64,000 nt of DNA from a phage. Shown here one piece after another: positions 18,058 to 52,265 of the stretch (position 1 is the stretch's first letter; each line of letters opens with the position of its first letter). A program made the position numbers and the translations under genes. Where the stretch lies: the sequence record NC_111505.1. One strand, 5' to 3'. The notes under the pieces are model-generated. The model worked only from the letters and a program-made list of their open reading frames with translations, was not told where the DNA came from and searched no databases.

Positions 18058-20397
18058 TTACCAAAGATCTGTTGACATAAAGTTAATATCTTTGTTATTC
18101 TCCCACTCAAGTTTTGCATCAAGTATTTTGCTAAACTCACCCTCATCTATTGAAATCGTGATTTTCCCATCGCTGATCTCTAAAGGTAGCATTTCCATAG
18201 TTCTTAATTGAGAAGCAAAACCAGGACCACCCGGCAACGGAAGAGTTCCTCCCGGCAAGGTGTCCAAAGGATCAACAAATCCGTTACCTCCCGATATGAT
18301 ATCTTTGCGAATCATATCACTGATAGTATCCAGTTGCTGATTTCTCTCACTTAGCGGGTTGAAACGGTCATTAAATAACTCCCCGGCACTTAATATTGTA
18401 CCGATAATACCAAGCTTCCCAAGCAGGCCAACTCTACCACCAGGTGTCTTGAGGCCACCTCCCCCTTTTCCTGCCGCACCACCACCAGATCCTTCTGTGG
18501 TAGCTGCACCTGCACCTGCTGCTCCAGCTGCGCCTCTTATAGAACTAAGGAATTTGAAGGTTTTTACAAGCATAGATGCCATGACAAAACCTTTTGTCAG
18601 GGCGTTCACTACCAGCATGATGGCAGCAGCAAACCCTGCCCATTTAGCATAGCTAAAGGTGTCATTAAGCTCTTCAGAATATTCCTTCGTCTTAGCTGTT
18701 ATGAATCCCCATTTAATCCCCCATTCAAGGAAAAACATGCGGATCTTGACTATGGTATTGTTTAGTTCGCCAACTACCCAGTTGAGACCTCTCACAAAAC
18801 CGCTAACAAAATCACCAGAGGCATCCCACACAAATTGCAAAGTCTCACCTGTGCGAATCAGTGTATAATAGAACTCTGTTAATTCATCAGCCCAACGGGT
18901 GAACAGCTTCTGACGAGATAGTTCGATGAAGGTTTTCAGTCTGTTTTCTGCCAGTACGTTAGACTTCTGCATTCTTTCATAACCAGCTGCAGATGCCTCG
19001 TTCATGTACTTAGCTACATACTTCATGATCTTGGCTGTCTTAACCTCACCTTTCTTCATCATGTCCATGAACTGATCCATGGATAGTTCAGAAAGACCAA
19101 AAGCCTCTTTGGTGGCTTTGATAAAAGGTTCGTATGCACCGGGCAATGCTTCAGCAAGTTGTTGCTTCAGTTCTTCGGACATTACCTGTCCTTTACCAAG
19201 CATTTGCTGGATTGCCATAATACCGCGCTGGTATTTTACCTCATCCGCACCATAAGCAGCAGCATACTGTGAGTATGCAGAGAATAGCTCATGCACTTCC
19301 TGATTTGTCATCTGGTTTTTGGCGTTTACCGCCATCTGGGCGTAACCTTGAAGACCAGATTTGAGATCAAAACCAAGACGCATAGCCTCTTGCTGGACAA
19401 ACGCAACCTCACTGTTGGCTTTGTTTGGATCTCCAGTAACAGCAGTAAGAGCAGCACTTGCCCCCTCCATCATGTGACCAGATCTGTTCACAGCAGTAAA
19501 TCCAGAGAAAGCCGTATACGCAGCTGTTGCATTAATAACAGATCTACGTAAGTCTCTCATGGCATCGCCTAGTGTAAGCGTTTGGCTGGTGGCGCTTTTA
19601 AATCCAGACTGCAGAGCTGACAGGTGGGCGTTAAAGGTTGACTTTTTCATCTCTCCGCGAGCAAACCTGGACTCTAACTCTGAGTATCCTGGCAAGCTTC
19701 CACGGAATCCGGCTCCATACTTGGCAGAAAGTCTTATCGCAGAGTTGTAGAGGTGGGTTCTCCTTGCCTCACGATCAGACATAAGCTTATTATCCATACC
19801 AGCTTTACTGTCTCTTCTTAGCTGTCTATGATAACGATTCATAGCGGCTGTCTGAGCTTTCACAAGGTTAGGGTCGGAAGCCACACCACCCATATTAGGG
19901 TTACCTGGGATATACTTGAAAGATTTGGCATTAGCCAAAACTCTTGCCTTTGGTGCCTTATAACCGCCGTAAGACACTGGTGTAGATTTGGCAGCCTTTT
20001 TGGCCTCTTTAGCTTGCTGCTGGTAGAACTTACGCATCCTGGCCATTTCTGGATTTTTAGCGGTAAGATTACCTACAGCCTGTTTACGTCTTGCGTTTTC
20101 CCTACGTTCTATTGCAGCCCTTACTGCAGCCTCTTTCTTGGCTTGTGCTACGCTCTCCCTGTGAAGTTTAGCATTTGCCTGAGATTGCTGTCTGGCAACC
20201 CGCTGCATTGTTTGCTGGGTTTTAACAGCCACTGCCTGCCATCTACTCATTGGGTTGGCTGAGTTAAAATCCTCGCCCAGTTTCCTGAACTCCCTCCCAA
20301 TACTGCGAATTTTCTCTACAGCTTTTTTGTAGGAGGAGTTCTCTATCTCAAAGCCAATCTTGTTGACTGTTGTGGCAACTATTTTGTTTGTAGCCAT
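18058..20397 (-). CDS. tail tape measure protein
   Basis: 779-aa ORF downstream of the tube gene and chaperone-like ORFs; helical N-terminal two-thirds and Gly-rich C-terminal region (AAGAAGAGAATTEGSGGGAAGKGGGG). Confidence 0.6.
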   Translation of the reverse strand: MATNKIVATTVNKIGFEIENSSYKKAVEKIRSIGREFRKLGEDFNSANPMSRWQAVAVKTQQTMQRVARQQSQANAKLHRESVAQAKKEAAVRAAIERRENARRKQAVGNLTAKNPEMARMRKFYQQQAKEAKKAAKSTPVSYGGYKAPKARVLANAKSFKYIPGNPNMGGVASDPNLVKAQTAAMNRYHRQLRRDSKAGMDNKLMSDREARRTHLYNSAIRLSAKYGAGFRGSLPGYSELESRFARGEMKKSTFNAHLSALQSGFKSATSQTLTLGDAMRDLRRSVINATAAYTAFSGFTAVNRSGHMMEGASAALTAVTGDPNKANSEVAFVQQEAMRLGFDLKSGLQGYAQMAVNAKNQMTNQEVHELFSAYSQYAAAYGADEVKYQRGIMAIQQMLGKGQVMSEELKQQLAEALPGAYEPFIKATKEAFGLSELSMDQFMDMMKKGEVKTAKIMKYVAKYMNEASAAGYERMQKSNVLAENRLKTFIELSRQKLFTRWADELTEFYYTLIRTGETLQFVWDASGDFVSGFVRGLNWVVGELNNTIVKIRMFFLEWGIKWGFITAKTKEYSEELNDTFSYAKWAGFAAAIMLVVNALTKGFVMASMLVKTFKFLSSIRGAAGAAGAGAATTEGSGGGAAGKGGGGLKTPGGRVGLLGKLGIIGTILSAGELFNDRFNPLSERNQQLDTISDMIRKDIISGGNGFVDPLDTLPGGTLPLPGGPGFASQLRTMEMLPLEISDGKITISIDEGEFSKILDAKLEWENNKDINFMSTDLW

Positions 20398-48309: not shown

Positions 48310-48641
48310 TGACTAAAAATGCTGTAGATAACGCAATTATGGAAGCTGTTTTTGAGGATGATCATACAACAGGGACACTTAAAACAAAAAACACATTCGT
48401 TGTTGCCACAGGTATGTGGCGGTTGTATGAAGATGACACCATTTCATACATCCTGTACACTGATGATTACGCAGATGACCGTGTATGGTCTGCTGTTTTA
48501 AAAGAGGATTGTGAGCTGATTGAGGGCGAGCGGTTATGCATGTTCACCAGTGTGGAAACAGATGTTAAGCTTTGCTCTCTCGTCTTGTTCAAAGATAAGG
48601 CTTATGCTCCTGATGAAGGAGAGGAGGATGAGGAAGCATGA
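48306..48641 (+). CDS. hypothetical protein
   Basis: 111-aa ORF overlapping its neighbours by 4 nt. Confidence 0.4.
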   Translation: MMTKNAVDNAIMEAVFEDDHTTGTLKTKNTFVVATGMWRLYEDDTISYILYTDDYADDRVWSAVLKEDCELIEGERLCMFTSVETDVKLCSLVLFKDKAYAPDEGEEDEEA

Positions 48642-49267
48642 GAGAGCGTCTATTATCCATAGACCAGTCGTTGACACACACAGCTTGCGTTGTATGGGAC
48701 GATGGAAAGCCTGTTCATAAGGTTGTGTTACGAACTCAAAGCTCATCTGCAAAAGAGAAGAAACCAGGGACGGTTTCTTTTGCAACAGCTGCTGAGCGTA
48801 TTGACTGGATCTGCAAACAGGTTAGATATTATATCCACACGCACGGCGTTGACACCGTGGTAATGGAAGGGCTCTCCTTCGGATCGCGAGGGGATGCTAC
48901 ACGTGAACTGGCTGGGTTGTTTTACGGTCTTGAAGTTATGTTATGGGATGCTTTAGCGGATTGTGAAAATGACGGCCTGTTTAAGGTCCACACAGTGACA
49001 CCTACAACTGCCAAAAAGTTTGCTCGTAGTCATCTACCTGAAGAACTTGCTTTTGAGGAGAAGAAAAAGCTTGACAAAAAGACAGGTAAAGAGCATACTG
49101 TGAAGAAACCTGTTACGATGGATAAAAAGTTGATGGTCAAGGCCTGCGAAGTATCTGAACCGGGGTTCCTAGATGGGATCAATTTAGTACAAGGTAAGGC
49201 CGATCTCGCAGATGCTTATTGGATAGGCAGGGCGCATCTGGAGGGATTATCGCAAAGCGTAAAATAA
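48638..49267 (+). CDS. RuvC-like Holliday junction resolvase
   Basis: RuvC-type blocks LSIDQSLTHTA (cf. LGIDPG), VVMEGLSFGSRG and LADAYWIGRAHL. Confidence 0.55.
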   Translation: MRERLLSIDQSLTHTACVVWDDGKPVHKVVLRTQSSSAKEKKPGTVSFATAAERIDWICKQVRYYIHTHGVDTVVMEGLSFGSRGDATRELAGLFYGLEVMLWDALADCENDGLFKVHTVTPTTAKKFARSHLPEELAFEEKKKLDKKTGKEHTVKKPVTMDKKLMVKACEVSEPGFLDGINLVQGKADLADAYWIGRAHLEGLSQSVK

Positions 49268-49794
49268 GAAAGAAAGCTGTCAAAGCCCCCGTTCATAACG
49301 GGTGGCTAAAAGATTCTAAGGATATAGCCAACTTTCGGAAAGAATTGTCAGAAGAGCAGGATGGTCTTGATCCGATCTTGTGCGAACCACTTCGTAAGCC
49401 TTGTTTAGATCATGATCATCTGACTGGTCGTTGCAGGGGTGTTTTGTCCCAATGCACTAATACCTTTGAGGGGTATGTGCTTAAATACTGGATGAAATAC
49501 TGTAACGAGTATACAGATTGCAGTTTATCAGAGGCGTTGCGCCGGATGGCTGACTATCTGGAGAAAGACTACAGCGACTTCCCGCTCCACAAAAACTACA
49601 GGGACGATATGACAAAGTTCTTGAGGAGATGCTCTAAAGCTACGATTATTGCACGGGCAGAATCGGATCTCGATCTTGTCATTAATTCAGAGTACACCAA
49701 GCATGAGGCTATTGAGGCCTACATGCAGGAGTTTATAAAGAAAACTGAGGAGAGAGATTTCTATGGAGACGAAAAAGGTATTCAATCCTTGTGA
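49219..49794 (+). CDS. endonuclease VII-like (HNH-type) protein
   Basis: Endo VII signature CEPLRKPCLDHDHLTGRCRGVLSQCTN. Overlaps the upstream gene by 49 nt; no alternative start found in frame. Confidence 0.5.
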   Translation: MDRQGASGGIIAKRKIRKKAVKAPVHNGWLKDSKDIANFRKELSEEQDGLDPILCEPLRKPCLDHDHLTGRCRGVLSQCTNTFEGYVLKYWMKYCNEYTDCSLSEALRRMADYLEKDYSDFPLHKNYRDDMTKFLRRCSKATIIARAESDLDLVINSEYTKHEAIEAYMQEFIKKTEERDFYGDEKGIQSL

Positions 49795-50980: not shown

Positions 50981-50995
50981 CAAGTAGAGGGAGGC

Positions 50996-51832
50996 TTGCG
51001 CCTCCCTTTTCATTTTGGAGGCACTTTGAGCAAGAAAGAGTCCAACGACAAATATTACACAGACCCTGAGTATGCAGAATATCTTGTTGGTAAAGTAAAA
51101 GGTAGGTATGGGAATTGTGCATACGTTGAGCCTTCTGCTGGAAAGGGTTCTTTTTCAAAACTATTTTCAGAGATACTGTCGTACGATTTGGTACCAGATC
51201 CTGGATTTGAAGGCCCAACACCGTGTATTAAGGCAAACTTCTTAGAGGTGTACCCTAAGGCTGATGTCTTCATAGGCAATCCTCCATTCGGCAAAAATTC
51301 GTCTTTAGCTTGCAAGTTCTTTAACCACTGTGCATCATTGCTAGAGCCTGGTGGGGCTATAGCCTTCATCTTGCCACGGACATTTGAAAAAATATTTTTT
51401 GCAAACAGGCTTGACATGTCGATGCACCTTATTTACAGCGAAAGGTGCCCCAAGAACTCGTTTTTACTTAACGGCAAACCTTATGACGTGCCATGTGTTT
51501 TCCAAATTTGGGAGAAAAAGGTGTGCAATAGGGATCCTGTAGAGATTGGAGAGAATAAGTTATTTTCTTTTAGCACCCCAGATGACTACGACTTCTGCAT
51601 AAGACGTGTTGGGTATAATGCTGGAAAAGTATTGGGAGAGGATGACCCAAAATCTGAAGAATCAACATATTTCATAAAATCTTTAGTTGAGGGTGTTGAC
51701 AGAGTGTTTGCTGAATGCTATTCTTCTTTTCAAGAAGAAGCAGGTAAGACTGCTGGAATGAAGAGTATAGGCAAGAAAGAACTACAATACATTTTGGAGA
51801 CCAGGTATGATCAAAAGTATAGACTTGACTAA
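50996..51832 (+). CDS. N6-adenine DNA methyltransferase
   Basis: SAM-binding-like YYTDPEYAEYLV...VEPSAGKGSF and catalytic NPPF (IGNPPFGKN). Non-ATG start; TTG at 50996 or 51026 (RBS GGAGG). Confidence 0.6.
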   Translation: MRLPFHFGGTLSKKESNDKYYTDPEYAEYLVGKVKGRYGNCAYVEPSAGKGSFSKLFSEILSYDLVPDPGFEGPTPCIKANFLEVYPKADVFIGNPPFGKNSSLACKFFNHCASLLEPGGAIAFILPRTFEKIFFANRLDMSMHLIYSERCPKNSFLLNGKPYDVPCVFQIWEKKVCNRDPVEIGENKLFSFSTPDDYDFCIRRVGYNAGKVLGEDDPKSEESTYFIKSLVEGVDRVFAECYSSFQEEAGKTAGMKSIGKKELQYILETRYDQKYRLD

Positions 51833-52265
51833 AGAGCTTACTGATGCAAAGGCTTTTGGTGAAACAGCCGTGCAAAGGGGACAGGCTATGGGGCTGGCAC
51901 TACCTTTTGTCTTAAAAGAGCATTTTACAGATTTTCAGCTTATCCGTGGTGAAAAGGGTATGCTTATTCTGGAACATAAGTTGAGTAAGAAACGTTATAA
52001 AGTTGTTTTTAATTCTAAAGCCCCAACAAAACTTGGATTCAGAACTTACAATCTCAACCCTTCTTATACTAAGGGTGTTGGAAGAGTGGAACAGCAGCAT
52101 TTCAGTGCTAGAGCTTCTTTAGCACCTTTGATGGTAAATTTCTCAGGTGTGGCTTTAGGATACCTGGATAAGAAAAGAGTTCTTCATGTTCGTTTTACAG
52201 ACTTTGTAACGCTTTTAGCTAACAACGAAGTAGATGAAAAGGGACGTGTAAAAACAAACTTCTAA
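51807..52265 (+). CDS. hypothetical protein overlapping the methyltransferase 3' end
   Basis: 152-aa ORF with RBS GGAGA, overlapping the methyltransferase gene by 26 nt. Confidence 0.4.
   Translation: MIKSIDLTKELTDAKAFGETAVQRGQAMGLALPFVLKEHFTDFQLIRGEKGMLILEHKLSKKRYKVVFNSKAPTKLGFRTYNLNPSYTKGVGRVEQQHFSARASLAPLMVNFSGVALGYLDKKRVLHVRFTDFVTLLANNEVDEKGRVKTNF

What the first reader, a model, noticed from the sequence alone, without database searches (positions are those of the whole stretch)
50996..52265. Orphan N6-adenine methyltransferase with an overlapping downstream 152-aa ORF
The methyltransferase (NPPF motif) has no recognisable restriction partner, suggesting self-protective genome methylation. 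The overlapping 152-aa ORF (26-nt overlap, own RBS) has no assignable function and is the size of the smallest type II restriction enzymes, so a compact restriction-modification pair is a remote possibility.
Basis: inference. Interest (0 to 1): 0.4.

Follow-up and report, generated by a model that had tools for sequence, protein, structure and literature searches.

The report
Phage GTAC methylase with degenerate restriction-enzyme partner
In this rV5-like E. coli phage, an adenine methylase that most likely marks GTAC sites overlaps a small gene that is a highly diverged relative of the restriction enzymes normally paired with such methylases but lacks their cutting residues, so the pair looks like a restriction-modification cassette whose nuclease has been repurposed.

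Summary
The window is a Vequintavirus (rV5/FV3-like) genome. Both ORFs are real, with a 26-nt overlap and an NPPF motif. The methylase start at 50996 is wrong: it lies in the loop of a terminator hairpin. The real start is TTG 51026 (268 aa).

The methylase is a gamma-class N6-adenine DNA methyltransferase. Published nanopore counts for the related phage Bas51 show about 510 m6A at GTAC that persist when the phage's other adenine methylase (GATC) is inactivated. This gene is the only remaining candidate. GTAC is also the most depleted 4-bp palindrome in every group of viral loci carrying this methylase family.

The methylase is not a plain orphan. Iterative profiles link the 152-aa protein to a family of small proteins that always flank this methylase family (hhalign 96%). 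Typical members match a PADLOC type II REase model and keep E...D...DxK in 120 of 120 sequences. The phage clade has replaced all three catalytic acids but keeps the PSxxxGxGR loop. It is under purifying selection (dN/dS 0.09) and has co-diverged with its methylase.

Best reading: an RM-derived cassette with an active GTAC methylase and a probably non-cleaving REase homologue. An active compact RM pair is not excluded.

The parts
50986..51016 (+). Intrinsic terminator after the DnaQ-like exonuclease gene: 10-bp stem AGAGGGAGGC/GCCTCCCTTT, loop TTGC, then TCATTTT.
51017..51021 (+). GGAGG ribosome-binding site, 4 nt upstream of the methylase TTG start
   Evidence: read from the sequence
51026..51832 (+). 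Gamma-class N6-adenine DNA methyltransferase, 268 aa, TTG start. Inferred target GTAC (GTm6AC).
   Evidence: (PADLOC MTase_II, E 7.5e-32)
51128..51148 (+). AdoMet-binding motif I (EPSAGKG)
   Evidence: E35, P36, A38 and G39 invariant in 31 homologues
51278..51289 (+). Catalytic motif IV (NPPF)
   Evidence: G84 N85 P86 P87 F88 G89 invariant
51696..51724 (+). Sigma-70-like promoter match (TTGACA-17-TATTCT, TG-extended, 10 of 12) inside the 3' end of the methylase gene, about 80 nt upstream of the 152-aa ORF. Consensus match only; the number of such sites in the region is not above the shuffle expectation.
51796..51799 (+). GGAG ribosome-binding site, 7 nt upstream of the ATG of the 152-aa ORF
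51807..52265 (+). 152-aa diverged PD-(D/E)XK / type II REase-family homologue (R'). It overlaps the methylase gene by 26 nt (51807-51832). The canonical catalytic residues are replaced (P33, L53, K65/V67 or N69).
52059..52085 (+). PSYTKGVGR loop (residues 85-93). This is the only motif shared with all typical REase-like members (PSxMxGxGR). S86, G90 and R93 are invariant across 127 sequences. Inferred to be a DNA-reading element.

Best explanation
The two genes form a restriction-modification-derived cassette.

Gene 1 (51026-51832) is an active gamma-class N6-adenine DNA methyltransferase. It methylates the adenine of GTAC on both strands of the phage genome. This makes the virion DNA refractory to GTAC-containing restriction sites (RsaI-type, and 6-cutters such as KpnI GGTACC).

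Gene 2 (51807-52265) descends from the small PD-(D/E)XK type II endonuclease that is the usual neighbour of this methylase family in viruses. In the phage clade containing Vequintavirus, Phapecoctavirus and several marine phages, its three metal-binding acids have been replaced by P, a hydrophobic residue, and K or N. The conserved PSxxxGxGR loop and the fold are kept. It therefore most likely no longer hydrolyses DNA by the canonical mechanism. It is retained, translationally coupled to the methylase, as a GTAC-directed non-cleaving partner, for example binding unmethylated GTAC on host or nascent DNA, or assisting or regulating the methylase.

Shown: homology, loss of the catalytic residues, purifying selection, co-divergence with the methylase, and GTAC depletion.
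Inferred: GTAC specificity of this particular enzyme (by elimination plus the genome signature), loss of cleavage, and retained GTAC binding.
For: 1. Methylase identity. It makes a full-length match to PADLOC type II MTase models (E 7.5e-32). Motif I precedes NPPF, and M.TaqI is the closest solved relative.

2. GTAC methylation.
- Bas51 virion m6A counts are GATC 1405, GTAC 509 and other 576. In the T83P mutant of the other methylase they are 35, 511 and 349.
- That other methylase is the 177-aa NPPY enzyme; D69, D79 and T83 match it.
- The third annotated methylase is C5-type.
- No other [DNS]PP[YFWH] ORF occurs in 96.5 kb of a sister genome. In the window the only other match is a 123-aa ORF at 18715 that I took to be chance and did not examine.
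- About 247 GTAC sites per genome times 2 strands gives about 493, which matches 509.

3. Genome signature.
- GTAC is the most depleted of the 16 4-bp palindromes in the window (observed/expected, O/E, 0.57), Bas59 (0.58) and Phapecoctavirus (0.33).
- The same holds in other A-type loci (0.56), B-type loci (0.34), and loci where the methylase has two other partner families (0.39, 0.38).
- E. coli gives 0.94. The first 50 kb of phi92, which has no copy of the module, gives 0.72 (rank 5).
- GATC, the target of the partner-less phage methylase, gives 0.95-1.01.

4. Partner homology.
- The iterative HMM converges on 31 of 87 methylase loci, and every hit is the ORF flanking the methylase.
- Typical members hit PADLOC REase_II PDLC03550 (E 1e-5 to 6e-15).
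- hhalign of the phage clade against typical members gives 96.2% probability, E 2e-9.

5. Loss of the active site. E48, D67, D79 and K81 are 100% conserved in 120 typical members. In all 9 phage-clade lineages they become P, L/M/V, and K or N/C.

6. Still functional and coupled.
- dN/dS is 0.09.
- The gene is adjacent to or overlapping the methylase gene in every lineage, in either order.
- The methylases with this partner type form one clade.
Against: No biochemical data exist for either protein of this phage.

The GTAC assignment rests on elimination in a related phage plus a genome signature. It is not a knockout of this gene.

The 152-aa protein itself does not hit the REase model directly, so the link is transitive through profiles.

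Active sites are known to migrate in PD-(D/E)XK enzymes (general knowledge). The phage clade has its own invariant acid (E/D49), a near-invariant acid at 56/57, and K/R65.

Strict linkage with the methylase and persistent GTAC avoidance are exactly what an active REase would produce.
Confidence: 0.55

Rival explanations
1. The pair is a functional compact type II RM system. The 152-aa protein still cuts unmethylated GTAC using a rearranged active site. The phage uses it, as chloroviruses use theirs, to degrade host DNA or to exclude co-infecting phages, while its own DNA is protected by GTm6AC.
For: - The protein belongs to an REase family and has the fold.
- It is always linked to, and often overlaps, the methylase gene, in either order. 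The pair is inherited as a unit.
- GTAC is the most avoided palindrome in the genomes that carry the pair, but the site of the partner-less GATC methylase is not avoided.
- Virion GTAC sites are essentially fully methylated.
- The clade has conserved E/D49, E/D56-57 and K/R65.
- The pair sits among nuclease and nucleotide-salvage genes.
- Vequintaviruses are sensitive to ApeA, a defence whose authors propose is triggered by DNA-degradation products. This is circumstantial.
Against: - All three acids that are invariant in 120 typical members are replaced by non-acidic residues in all 9 lineages. The face of the sheet that carries the active site has become L/L/V plus one K.
- In the model, the only invariant acid (position 49) sits at a hairpin tip, not on beta-2.
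- No cleavage data exist.
Confidence: 0.27
2. The 152-aa protein is an exapted nuclease-fold protein whose present role has nothing to do with GTAC or with the methylase (for example a structural or replication accessory). Linkage would then be only historical.
For: - The catalytic residues are lost.
- pI varies widely across the clade, from 5.2 to 9.95.
- No function is assigned in any database.
Against: - Adjacency to the same methylase family is kept in all 9 lineages, despite 23-35% protein identity, different gene orders and different genomic contexts.
- The motif shared with active-type members (PSxxxGxGR) is the most conserved part of the protein.
- GTAC avoidance persists.
Confidence: 0.13
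3. One reading: a solitary (orphan) methylase followed by an unrelated small ORF.
For: Direct Pfam, NCBIfam and PADLOC scans of the 152-aa protein give nothing. All database annotations say 'hypothetical protein'.
Against: - Profile-profile homology to the REase-like partner family.
- 31 of 31 iterative hits flank the methylase.
Confidence: 0.04

Closest known systems
Virus-encoded type II RM systems that target GTAC, such as chlorovirus CviQI (M.CviQI is cited as a GTAC adenine methylase in PMC2588503)
   Same: Virus-borne. The methylase is an adenine methylase acting on GTAC. The partner is a small (about 150-aa) protein of a type II REase family. Many relatives of this methylase lie in giant-virus MAGs next to REase-like genes.
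   Different: In the phage clade the REase homologue lacks the E/D/D catalytic residues.
M.TaqI-type (gamma class, N12) N6-adenine DNA methyltransferases
   Same: Motif I lies N-terminal to NPP[FY], followed by a C-terminal target-recognition region. M.TaqI is the best PDB sequence match, aligned over motifs I and IV.
   Different: The PDB match is very weak (E 0.12). The protein is much shorter (268 vs 421 aa). It does not reach the Pfam Eco57I or MTS thresholds. Its inferred target is GTAC, not TCGA.
HpyAXII RM system of Helicobacter pylori (GTAC; gamma-class adenine methylase; PMC2588503)
   Same: GTAC with m6A. The methylase is small, with its catalytic Asn near residue 87 (here N85). The methylase is conserved while the endonuclease is often inactive.
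   Different: R.HpyAXII is described as related to R.PabI, which is a different fold (my knowledge, not tested here). There the enzyme is inactivated in individual strains. Here a residue-substituted but intact protein is kept under purifying selection across genera.
Solitary phage adenine methylases, such as T4 Dam or the 177-aa GATC methylase of the same Vequintaviruses (retron trigger, PMC12548924)
   Same: Phage-encoded self-methylation of the virion genome.
   Different: Those enzymes have no REase-like neighbour, and their site (GATC) is not avoided in the genome (O/E 0.95-1.01). This methylase has a co-inherited REase homologue, and its site is the most avoided palindrome.
Catalytically inactive members of the PD-(D/E)XK / endonuclease fold kept as partners, such as Sen15 and Sen54 of the tRNA-splicing endonuclease
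   Different: No sequence relationship, and a different biological context. This is an analogy only.

Membership tests
Gamma-class N6-adenine DNA methyltransferase (type II) | AdoMet-binding motif I (FxGxG-like) N-terminal to catalytic motif IV (D/N)PP(Y/F) | tested here: met
   EPSAGKG at residues 35-41 and NPPF at 85-88. Both are invariant in 31 homologues.
Gamma-class N6-adenine DNA methyltransferase (type II) | Significant full-length similarity to characterised type II methylase models | tested here: met
   PADLOC MTase_II PDLC03255, E 7.5e-32, profile positions 2-249 of 269. The Pfam Eco57I and MTS matches are below their cut-offs.
Gamma-class N6-adenine DNA methyltransferase (type II) | Methylates adenine N6 in a defined DNA sequence | not testable with these tools
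   Indirect evidence only: GTAC m6A in Bas51 is independent of the other methylase, the other candidates are eliminated, and GTAC is depleted in every genome group carrying the family.
Type II restriction-modification system | Adjacent methylase and endonuclease genes | tested here: met
   The genes overlap by 26 nt. The partner is homologous to a family that matches PADLOC REase_II.
Type II restriction-modification system | The endonuclease has an intact catalytic centre (for this family E...D...DxK) | tested here: not met
   E48, D67, D79 and K81 are 100% conserved in 120 typical members. In this protein and all 9 clade lineages they are P33, L53, and K65/V67 (hhalign) or N69/K71 (MAFFT).
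Type II restriction-modification system | The endonuclease cleaves the unmethylated site and is blocked by the cognate methylation | not testable with these tools
   Needs biochemistry or genetics.
PD-(D/E)XK (restriction-endonuclease-like) fold | Alpha-beta-beta-beta-alpha-beta core | tested here: met
Solitary (orphan) methyltransferase | No cognate endonuclease gene, or remnant of one, next to the methylase | tested here: not met
   The overlapping ORF is an REase-family homologue.
Controller (C) protein of RM systems | Small helix-turn-helix transcription factor | tested here: not met
   No HTH family hit. The predicted fold is an alpha/beta nuclease type.

The most novel reading that the evidence does not exclude
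A clade of lytic phages (Vequintavirus, Phapecoctavirus and marine relatives) has domesticated a restriction enzyme into a nuclease-dead, methylation-sensitive GTAC reader. Together with its cognate methylase, it would let the phage tell its own (GTm6AC) DNA from host or competitor (unmethylated) DNA without cutting. Possible uses are coating or blocking host DNA, or directing other phage nucleases to it. Persistent GTAC avoidance would then reflect the cost of this binding on nascent phage DNA.
Probability: 0.2. Interest if true: 0.8.

Novelty: new variant of a known kind. Interest (0 to 1): 0.55.

Why it matters
rV5-like phages are among the most frequently isolated coliphages and are candidates for phage therapy. 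Four points follow.

1. The unexplained GTAC m6A signal in a published Bas51 methylome can be assigned to a specific gene.
2. A gene annotated as 'hypothetical' in more than 180 phage genomes is recognised as a restriction-endonuclease-family protein.
3. The 'orphan' label for this methylase is wrong.
4. A restriction-enzyme homologue without its catalytic acids has been kept under purifying selection and co-inherited with its methylase across genera. Orphan methylases are usually assumed to arise by simple loss of the endonuclease gene, and this case does not fit that.

Either outcome of the decisive experiment would be informative. One outcome is a non-canonical active site in a 152-aa restriction enzyme. 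The other is a domesticated dead nuclease that reads methylation. Practically, virion DNA should resist RsaI and KpnI.

Tried and rejected
- **Direct scans of the 152-aa protein.** Pfam, NCBIfam and PADLOC gave nothing. PHROGs gave only an unknown-function family.
- **Sequence searches.** A single-sequence exhaustive search found only 5 relatives, and the word-indexed search found only 5 clusters.
- **First AF2 run.** With 7 sequences it gave pLDDT 49 and was discarded.
- **Structure-based searches.** A PDB sequence-profile search with the REase-like family found nothing. Foldseek against the PDB was not significant. BFVD returned only orthologues. afdb50 was unavailable.
- **Cluster names** gave no annotation. 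NCBIfam found nothing for typical members.
- **Is this the retron-triggering 'Bas51 N6 adenine methyltransferase' (GATC)?** Rejected. The published mutations D69G, D79G and T83P fit the other, 177-aa NPPY methylase, which lies outside the window.
- **Could the 'Dcm-like' methylase explain GTAC m6A?** Rejected. It has C5-type PPC and ENP motifs.
- **Controller protein.** Rejected: no HTH.
- **Host compositional bias as the cause of GTAC depletion.** Rejected: E. coli gives O/E 0.94.
- **GAP32.** Its 152-aa weak structural match is not adjacent to its methylase homologue and was not pursued.
- **Literature searches** for rV5 or Vequintavirus with RsaI or GTAC found nothing.

Full report
**What the window is.** The 3.5 kb around the finding is 93-98.6% identical to about 120 Vequintavirus genomes (rV5, FV3, BASEL phages), where the two genes are annotated 'putative DNA N6-adenine methyltransferase' and 'hypothetical protein'. 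The neighbourhood is a DNA-metabolism block:
- RuvC-like resolvase
- EndoVII
- DnaQ-like exonuclease subunit
- the pair under study
- a 67-aa ORF
- dNMP kinase
- an NT5C-like nucleotidase
- ThyX
- ribonucleotide reductase.

**Checking the observation.**
- Both ORFs, the NPPF motif (51278-51289), the 26-nt overlap (51807-51832), and a GGAG 7 nt before the second ATG are all present.
- The methylase start is wrong. Positions 50986-51009 form a 10-bp GC-rich hairpin followed by TCATTTT, an intrinsic terminator after the exonuclease gene (centroid -17.6 kcal/mol). The proposed TTG at 50996 is in its loop.
- The in-frame TTG at 51026, preceded by GGAGG, is the start used in FV3 and in the BASEL phages. 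It reproduces the N-terminus (M/L)SKK..D.YYT of homologues at 42-85% identity.
- The methylase is therefore 51026-51832, 268 aa.

**The methylase.**
- It matches PADLOC type II methylase models over their full length (E 7.5e-32).
- Motif I (EPSAGKG) lies N-terminal to NPPF, which is the gamma-class order. M.TaqI is its nearest solved relative, though weakly.
- More than 800 homologues exist, many in giant-virus MAGs and large phages.

**What it methylates.** A 2025 paper on retrons (PMC12548924) sequenced native DNA of the Vequintavirus Bas51.
- Its supplementary counts of m6A are GATC 1405, GTAC 509 and other 576 in wild type. [quoted passage not shown]
- That enzyme is not the gene in this finding. 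D69, D79 and T83 (next to NPPY) fit the 177-aa methylase found about 14 kb away in Vequintaviruses and absent from this window.
- GTAC methylation therefore needs a second adenine methylase. E. coli K-12 has none for GTAC (established knowledge: Dam, Dcm, EcoKI, and silent YhdJ).
- The only other annotated methylase has C5-type PPC and ENP motifs.
- A motif scan of 96.5 kb of a sister genome finds no further [DNS]PP[YFWH] ORF. In the window the only other match is a 123-aa ORF at 18715 that I took to be chance and did not examine.
- The genome carries about 247 GTAC sites, or about 493 adenines, against 509 observed. It carries about 696 GATC sites, or about 1392 adenines, against 1405 observed.
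- Both motifs are thus essentially fully methylated, and this gene is the GTAC enzyme by elimination.

**An independent signature.** I used a Markov expectation, N(GTA)·N(TAC)/N(TA), to compute observed/expected (O/E). GTAC is the most depleted of the 16 four-base palindromes in every set carrying this methylase family.

| Sequence set | GTAC O/E | Rank among 16 palindromes |
|---|---|---|
| This window | 0.57 (117 vs 206) | 1 |
| Bas59 (sister Vequintavirus) | 0.58 | 1 |
| Phapecoctavirus | 0.33 | 1 |
| Other loci with the same partner type | 0.56 | 1 |
| Loci with typical REase-like partners | 0.34 | 1 |
| Loci with a second partner family | 0.39 | 1 |
| Loci with a third partner family | 0.38 | 1 |
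| E. coli K-12 (100 kb) | 0.94 | not depleted |
| phi92, first 50 kb (relative with no module there) | 0.72 | 5 |

GATC, the site of the partner-less phage methylase, gives 0.95-1.01. The family is therefore tied to GTAC, and something other than host composition selects against GTAC in genomes that carry it.

**The 152-aa protein.**
- Direct scans find nothing, and exhaustive single-sequence search finds five relatives.
- Those few distant relatives (23-35% identity) occur in Phapecoctavirus, Tara marine contigs and other viral contigs. All of them sit directly next to, and usually overlap, a homologue of the same methylase. In most cases they lie upstream of it rather than downstream.
- I then fetched 80 viral loci encoding the methylase family and iterated an HMM of the small protein over all their six-frame ORFs. 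The search converged on 31 of 87 loci, and every hit is the ORF flanking the methylase. Three arrangements occur: upstream, downstream co-directional, and downstream convergent.
- The typical ('B-type') members are 148-190 aa and match PADLOC REase_II model PDLC03550 (E 1e-5 to 6e-15).
- Other loci pair the methylase with different REase-like families, one of which matches PDLC03460 at E 6e-56.
- A profile-profile comparison of the phage clade ('A-type') with B-type gives 96.2% probability, E 2e-9, over 117 columns.
- Foldseek against the PDB was not significant, so the fold evidence is supportive rather than decisive. The homology case rests mainly on the profiles and the positional pattern.

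**Is it still a nuclease?**
- In 120 B-type cluster representatives, DGR, E48, D67, D79-x-K81 and S93/G97/R100 (P0129 numbering) are 100% conserved. E48, D67, D79 and K81 form a canonical PD-(D/E)XK centre.
- In all nine A-type lineages E48 is Pro (P33 here) and D67 is hydrophobic (L53).
- D79-x-K81 aligns to K65-V-V67 in the gapless and hhalign alignments, or to N69-S-K71 in one MAFFT alignment.
- No alignment leaves an acid at any of the three positions. The sheet face that carries the active site becomes L53, L55, K65 and V67.
- What the two types share is the PSxxxGxGR loop (here PSYTKGVGR, residues 85-93).
- The clade has its own conserved residues: Q26, P33, E/D49, K/R65, T88, K89 and R93.
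- The gene is not decaying. Against a 78%-identical homologue, dN/dS is 0.09 with saturated dS, compared with 0.03 for the methylase.
- In a neighbour-joining tree of the methylases (no bootstrap), all those with A-type partners form one clade. That clade also contains one intermediate (L011) whose partner keeps E, D and QxK. The pair has therefore been inherited as a unit.

**Interpretation.**
- The cassette derives from a type II RM system that targets GTAC.
- The methylase is active and gives the phage constitutive GTm6AC. The HpyAXII paper shows this modification blocks RsaI. It should also protect GTAC-containing six-base sites such as KpnI (my knowledge).
- Replacement of every catalytic acid by conserved non-acidic residues argues that the partner has lost canonical hydrolysis and acquired new constraints.
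- It keeps the family's most conserved loop, stays strictly coupled to the methylase, and its carriers still avoid GTAC. These three points argue that it still acts on GTAC DNA.
- I therefore favour a non-cleaving, GTAC-directed partner (confidence about 0.55).
- An active enzyme with a rearranged site (about 0.27) remains a serious rival. The linkage and the site avoidance are what an active enzyme would produce, and active-site migration is known in this superfamily.
- A role unrelated to GTAC (about 0.13) and the original 'orphan plus unrelated ORF' reading (about 0.04) are less likely.

**Novelty.** The components are of known kinds. The new points are:
- the assignment of GTAC methylation to this gene;
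- the recognition of a widespread phage 'hypothetical protein' as an REase homologue;
- the finding that a residue-substituted version is conserved and co-inherited with its methylase across phage genera.

I found no paper describing this. I rate it a new variant of a known kind, with moderate interest. The decisive experiments are simple: single and double knockouts with methylome sequencing, and cleavage and binding assays on methylated and unmethylated GTAC DNA.

Noticed in passing
window 50986-51016: A strong intrinsic terminator lies immediately upstream of the methylase RBS, and the methylase uses a TTG start (also in a 78%-nt-identical relative, L088). Together these suggest the methylase is expressed at a low level by read-through. 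The overlapping 152-aa ORF has an ATG and a well-spaced GGAG.
   Followed up: partly
window 51181-51253: Three GTAC sites fall within 73 bp inside the 5' part of the methylase gene, against a mean spacing of about 550 bp. They include a BsiWI site (CGTACG, 51180-51185) and a KpnI site (GGTACC, 51190-51195). They encode the conserved SYDLVP segment, so coding constraint may explain them. A regulatory role was not tested.
   Followed up: no
window 51696-51724: A sigma-70-like promoter match with an extended -10 (TTGACA-17-TATTCT) lies inside the 3' end of the methylase gene, upstream of the 152-aa ORF. This is a consensus match only.
   Followed up: no
window, whole (64 kb); L003 + L090: GTAC is the most under-represented 4-bp palindrome (117 observed vs 206 expected). 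ACGT (0.67) and CTAG (0.59) are also low. GATC, which is methylated by the phage's other methylase, is not depleted.
   Followed up: yes
L003 15420-15953 (Bas59 record 100419-100952), outside this window: Vequintaviruses carry a second, 177-aa NPPY adenine methylase. The published retron-escape mutations (D69G, D79G, T83P) map to it. According to PMC12548924 it is responsible for GATC methylation of virion DNA even in E. coli hosts, and it is toxic when expressed alone.
   Followed up: partly
L090 29746-30510 (Bas59 record 64746-65510): A 254-aa 'Dcm-like' protein has FDGSGG, PPC and ENP motifs but no Pfam hit at E<=0.01. It may be a minimal C5-methylase-like protein that lacks a recognisable target-recognition domain. 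Its target is unknown.
   Followed up: partly
L016, L027, L029, L036 (ORF upstream or downstream of the methylase); L043, L047, L055, L058, L065 (convergent downstream ORF): In giant-virus and other viral contigs the same methylase family is paired with at least two further families of small neighbours. One is a 'MAERQxHGF...WD...SIK' family linked to PADLOC REase_II PDLC03460. The other is a 200-260-aa family with no hit. GTAC is the most depleted palindrome in those loci too, which suggests several unrelated GTAC isoschizomer families.
   Followed up: partly
window 52020-52040 (residues 72-78 of the 152-aa protein): Vequintavirus proteins carry a 7-residue insertion (APTKLGF) in the beta3-beta4 loop that is absent from all other clade members. 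It is the least confident part of the model (pLDDT about 54).
   Followed up: no
L088/L089 (human-associated metagenome contigs, 16 and 90 kb): In a phage whose pair is 78-85% identical in protein, the cassette sits in a different context. It follows a divergent intergenic region next to an RNA ligase gene rather than the DnaQ-like exonuclease gene. In Phapecoctavirus it lies between the primase/helicase and DNA polymerase genes, with the gene order reversed. The cassette appears to move as a unit.
   Followed up: partly
window 48638-49794: The RuvC-like resolvase ORF (48638-49267) and the EndoVII-like ORF (49219-49794) overlap by 49 nt in the mechanical ORF list. FV3 annotates the same overlap.
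   Followed up: no
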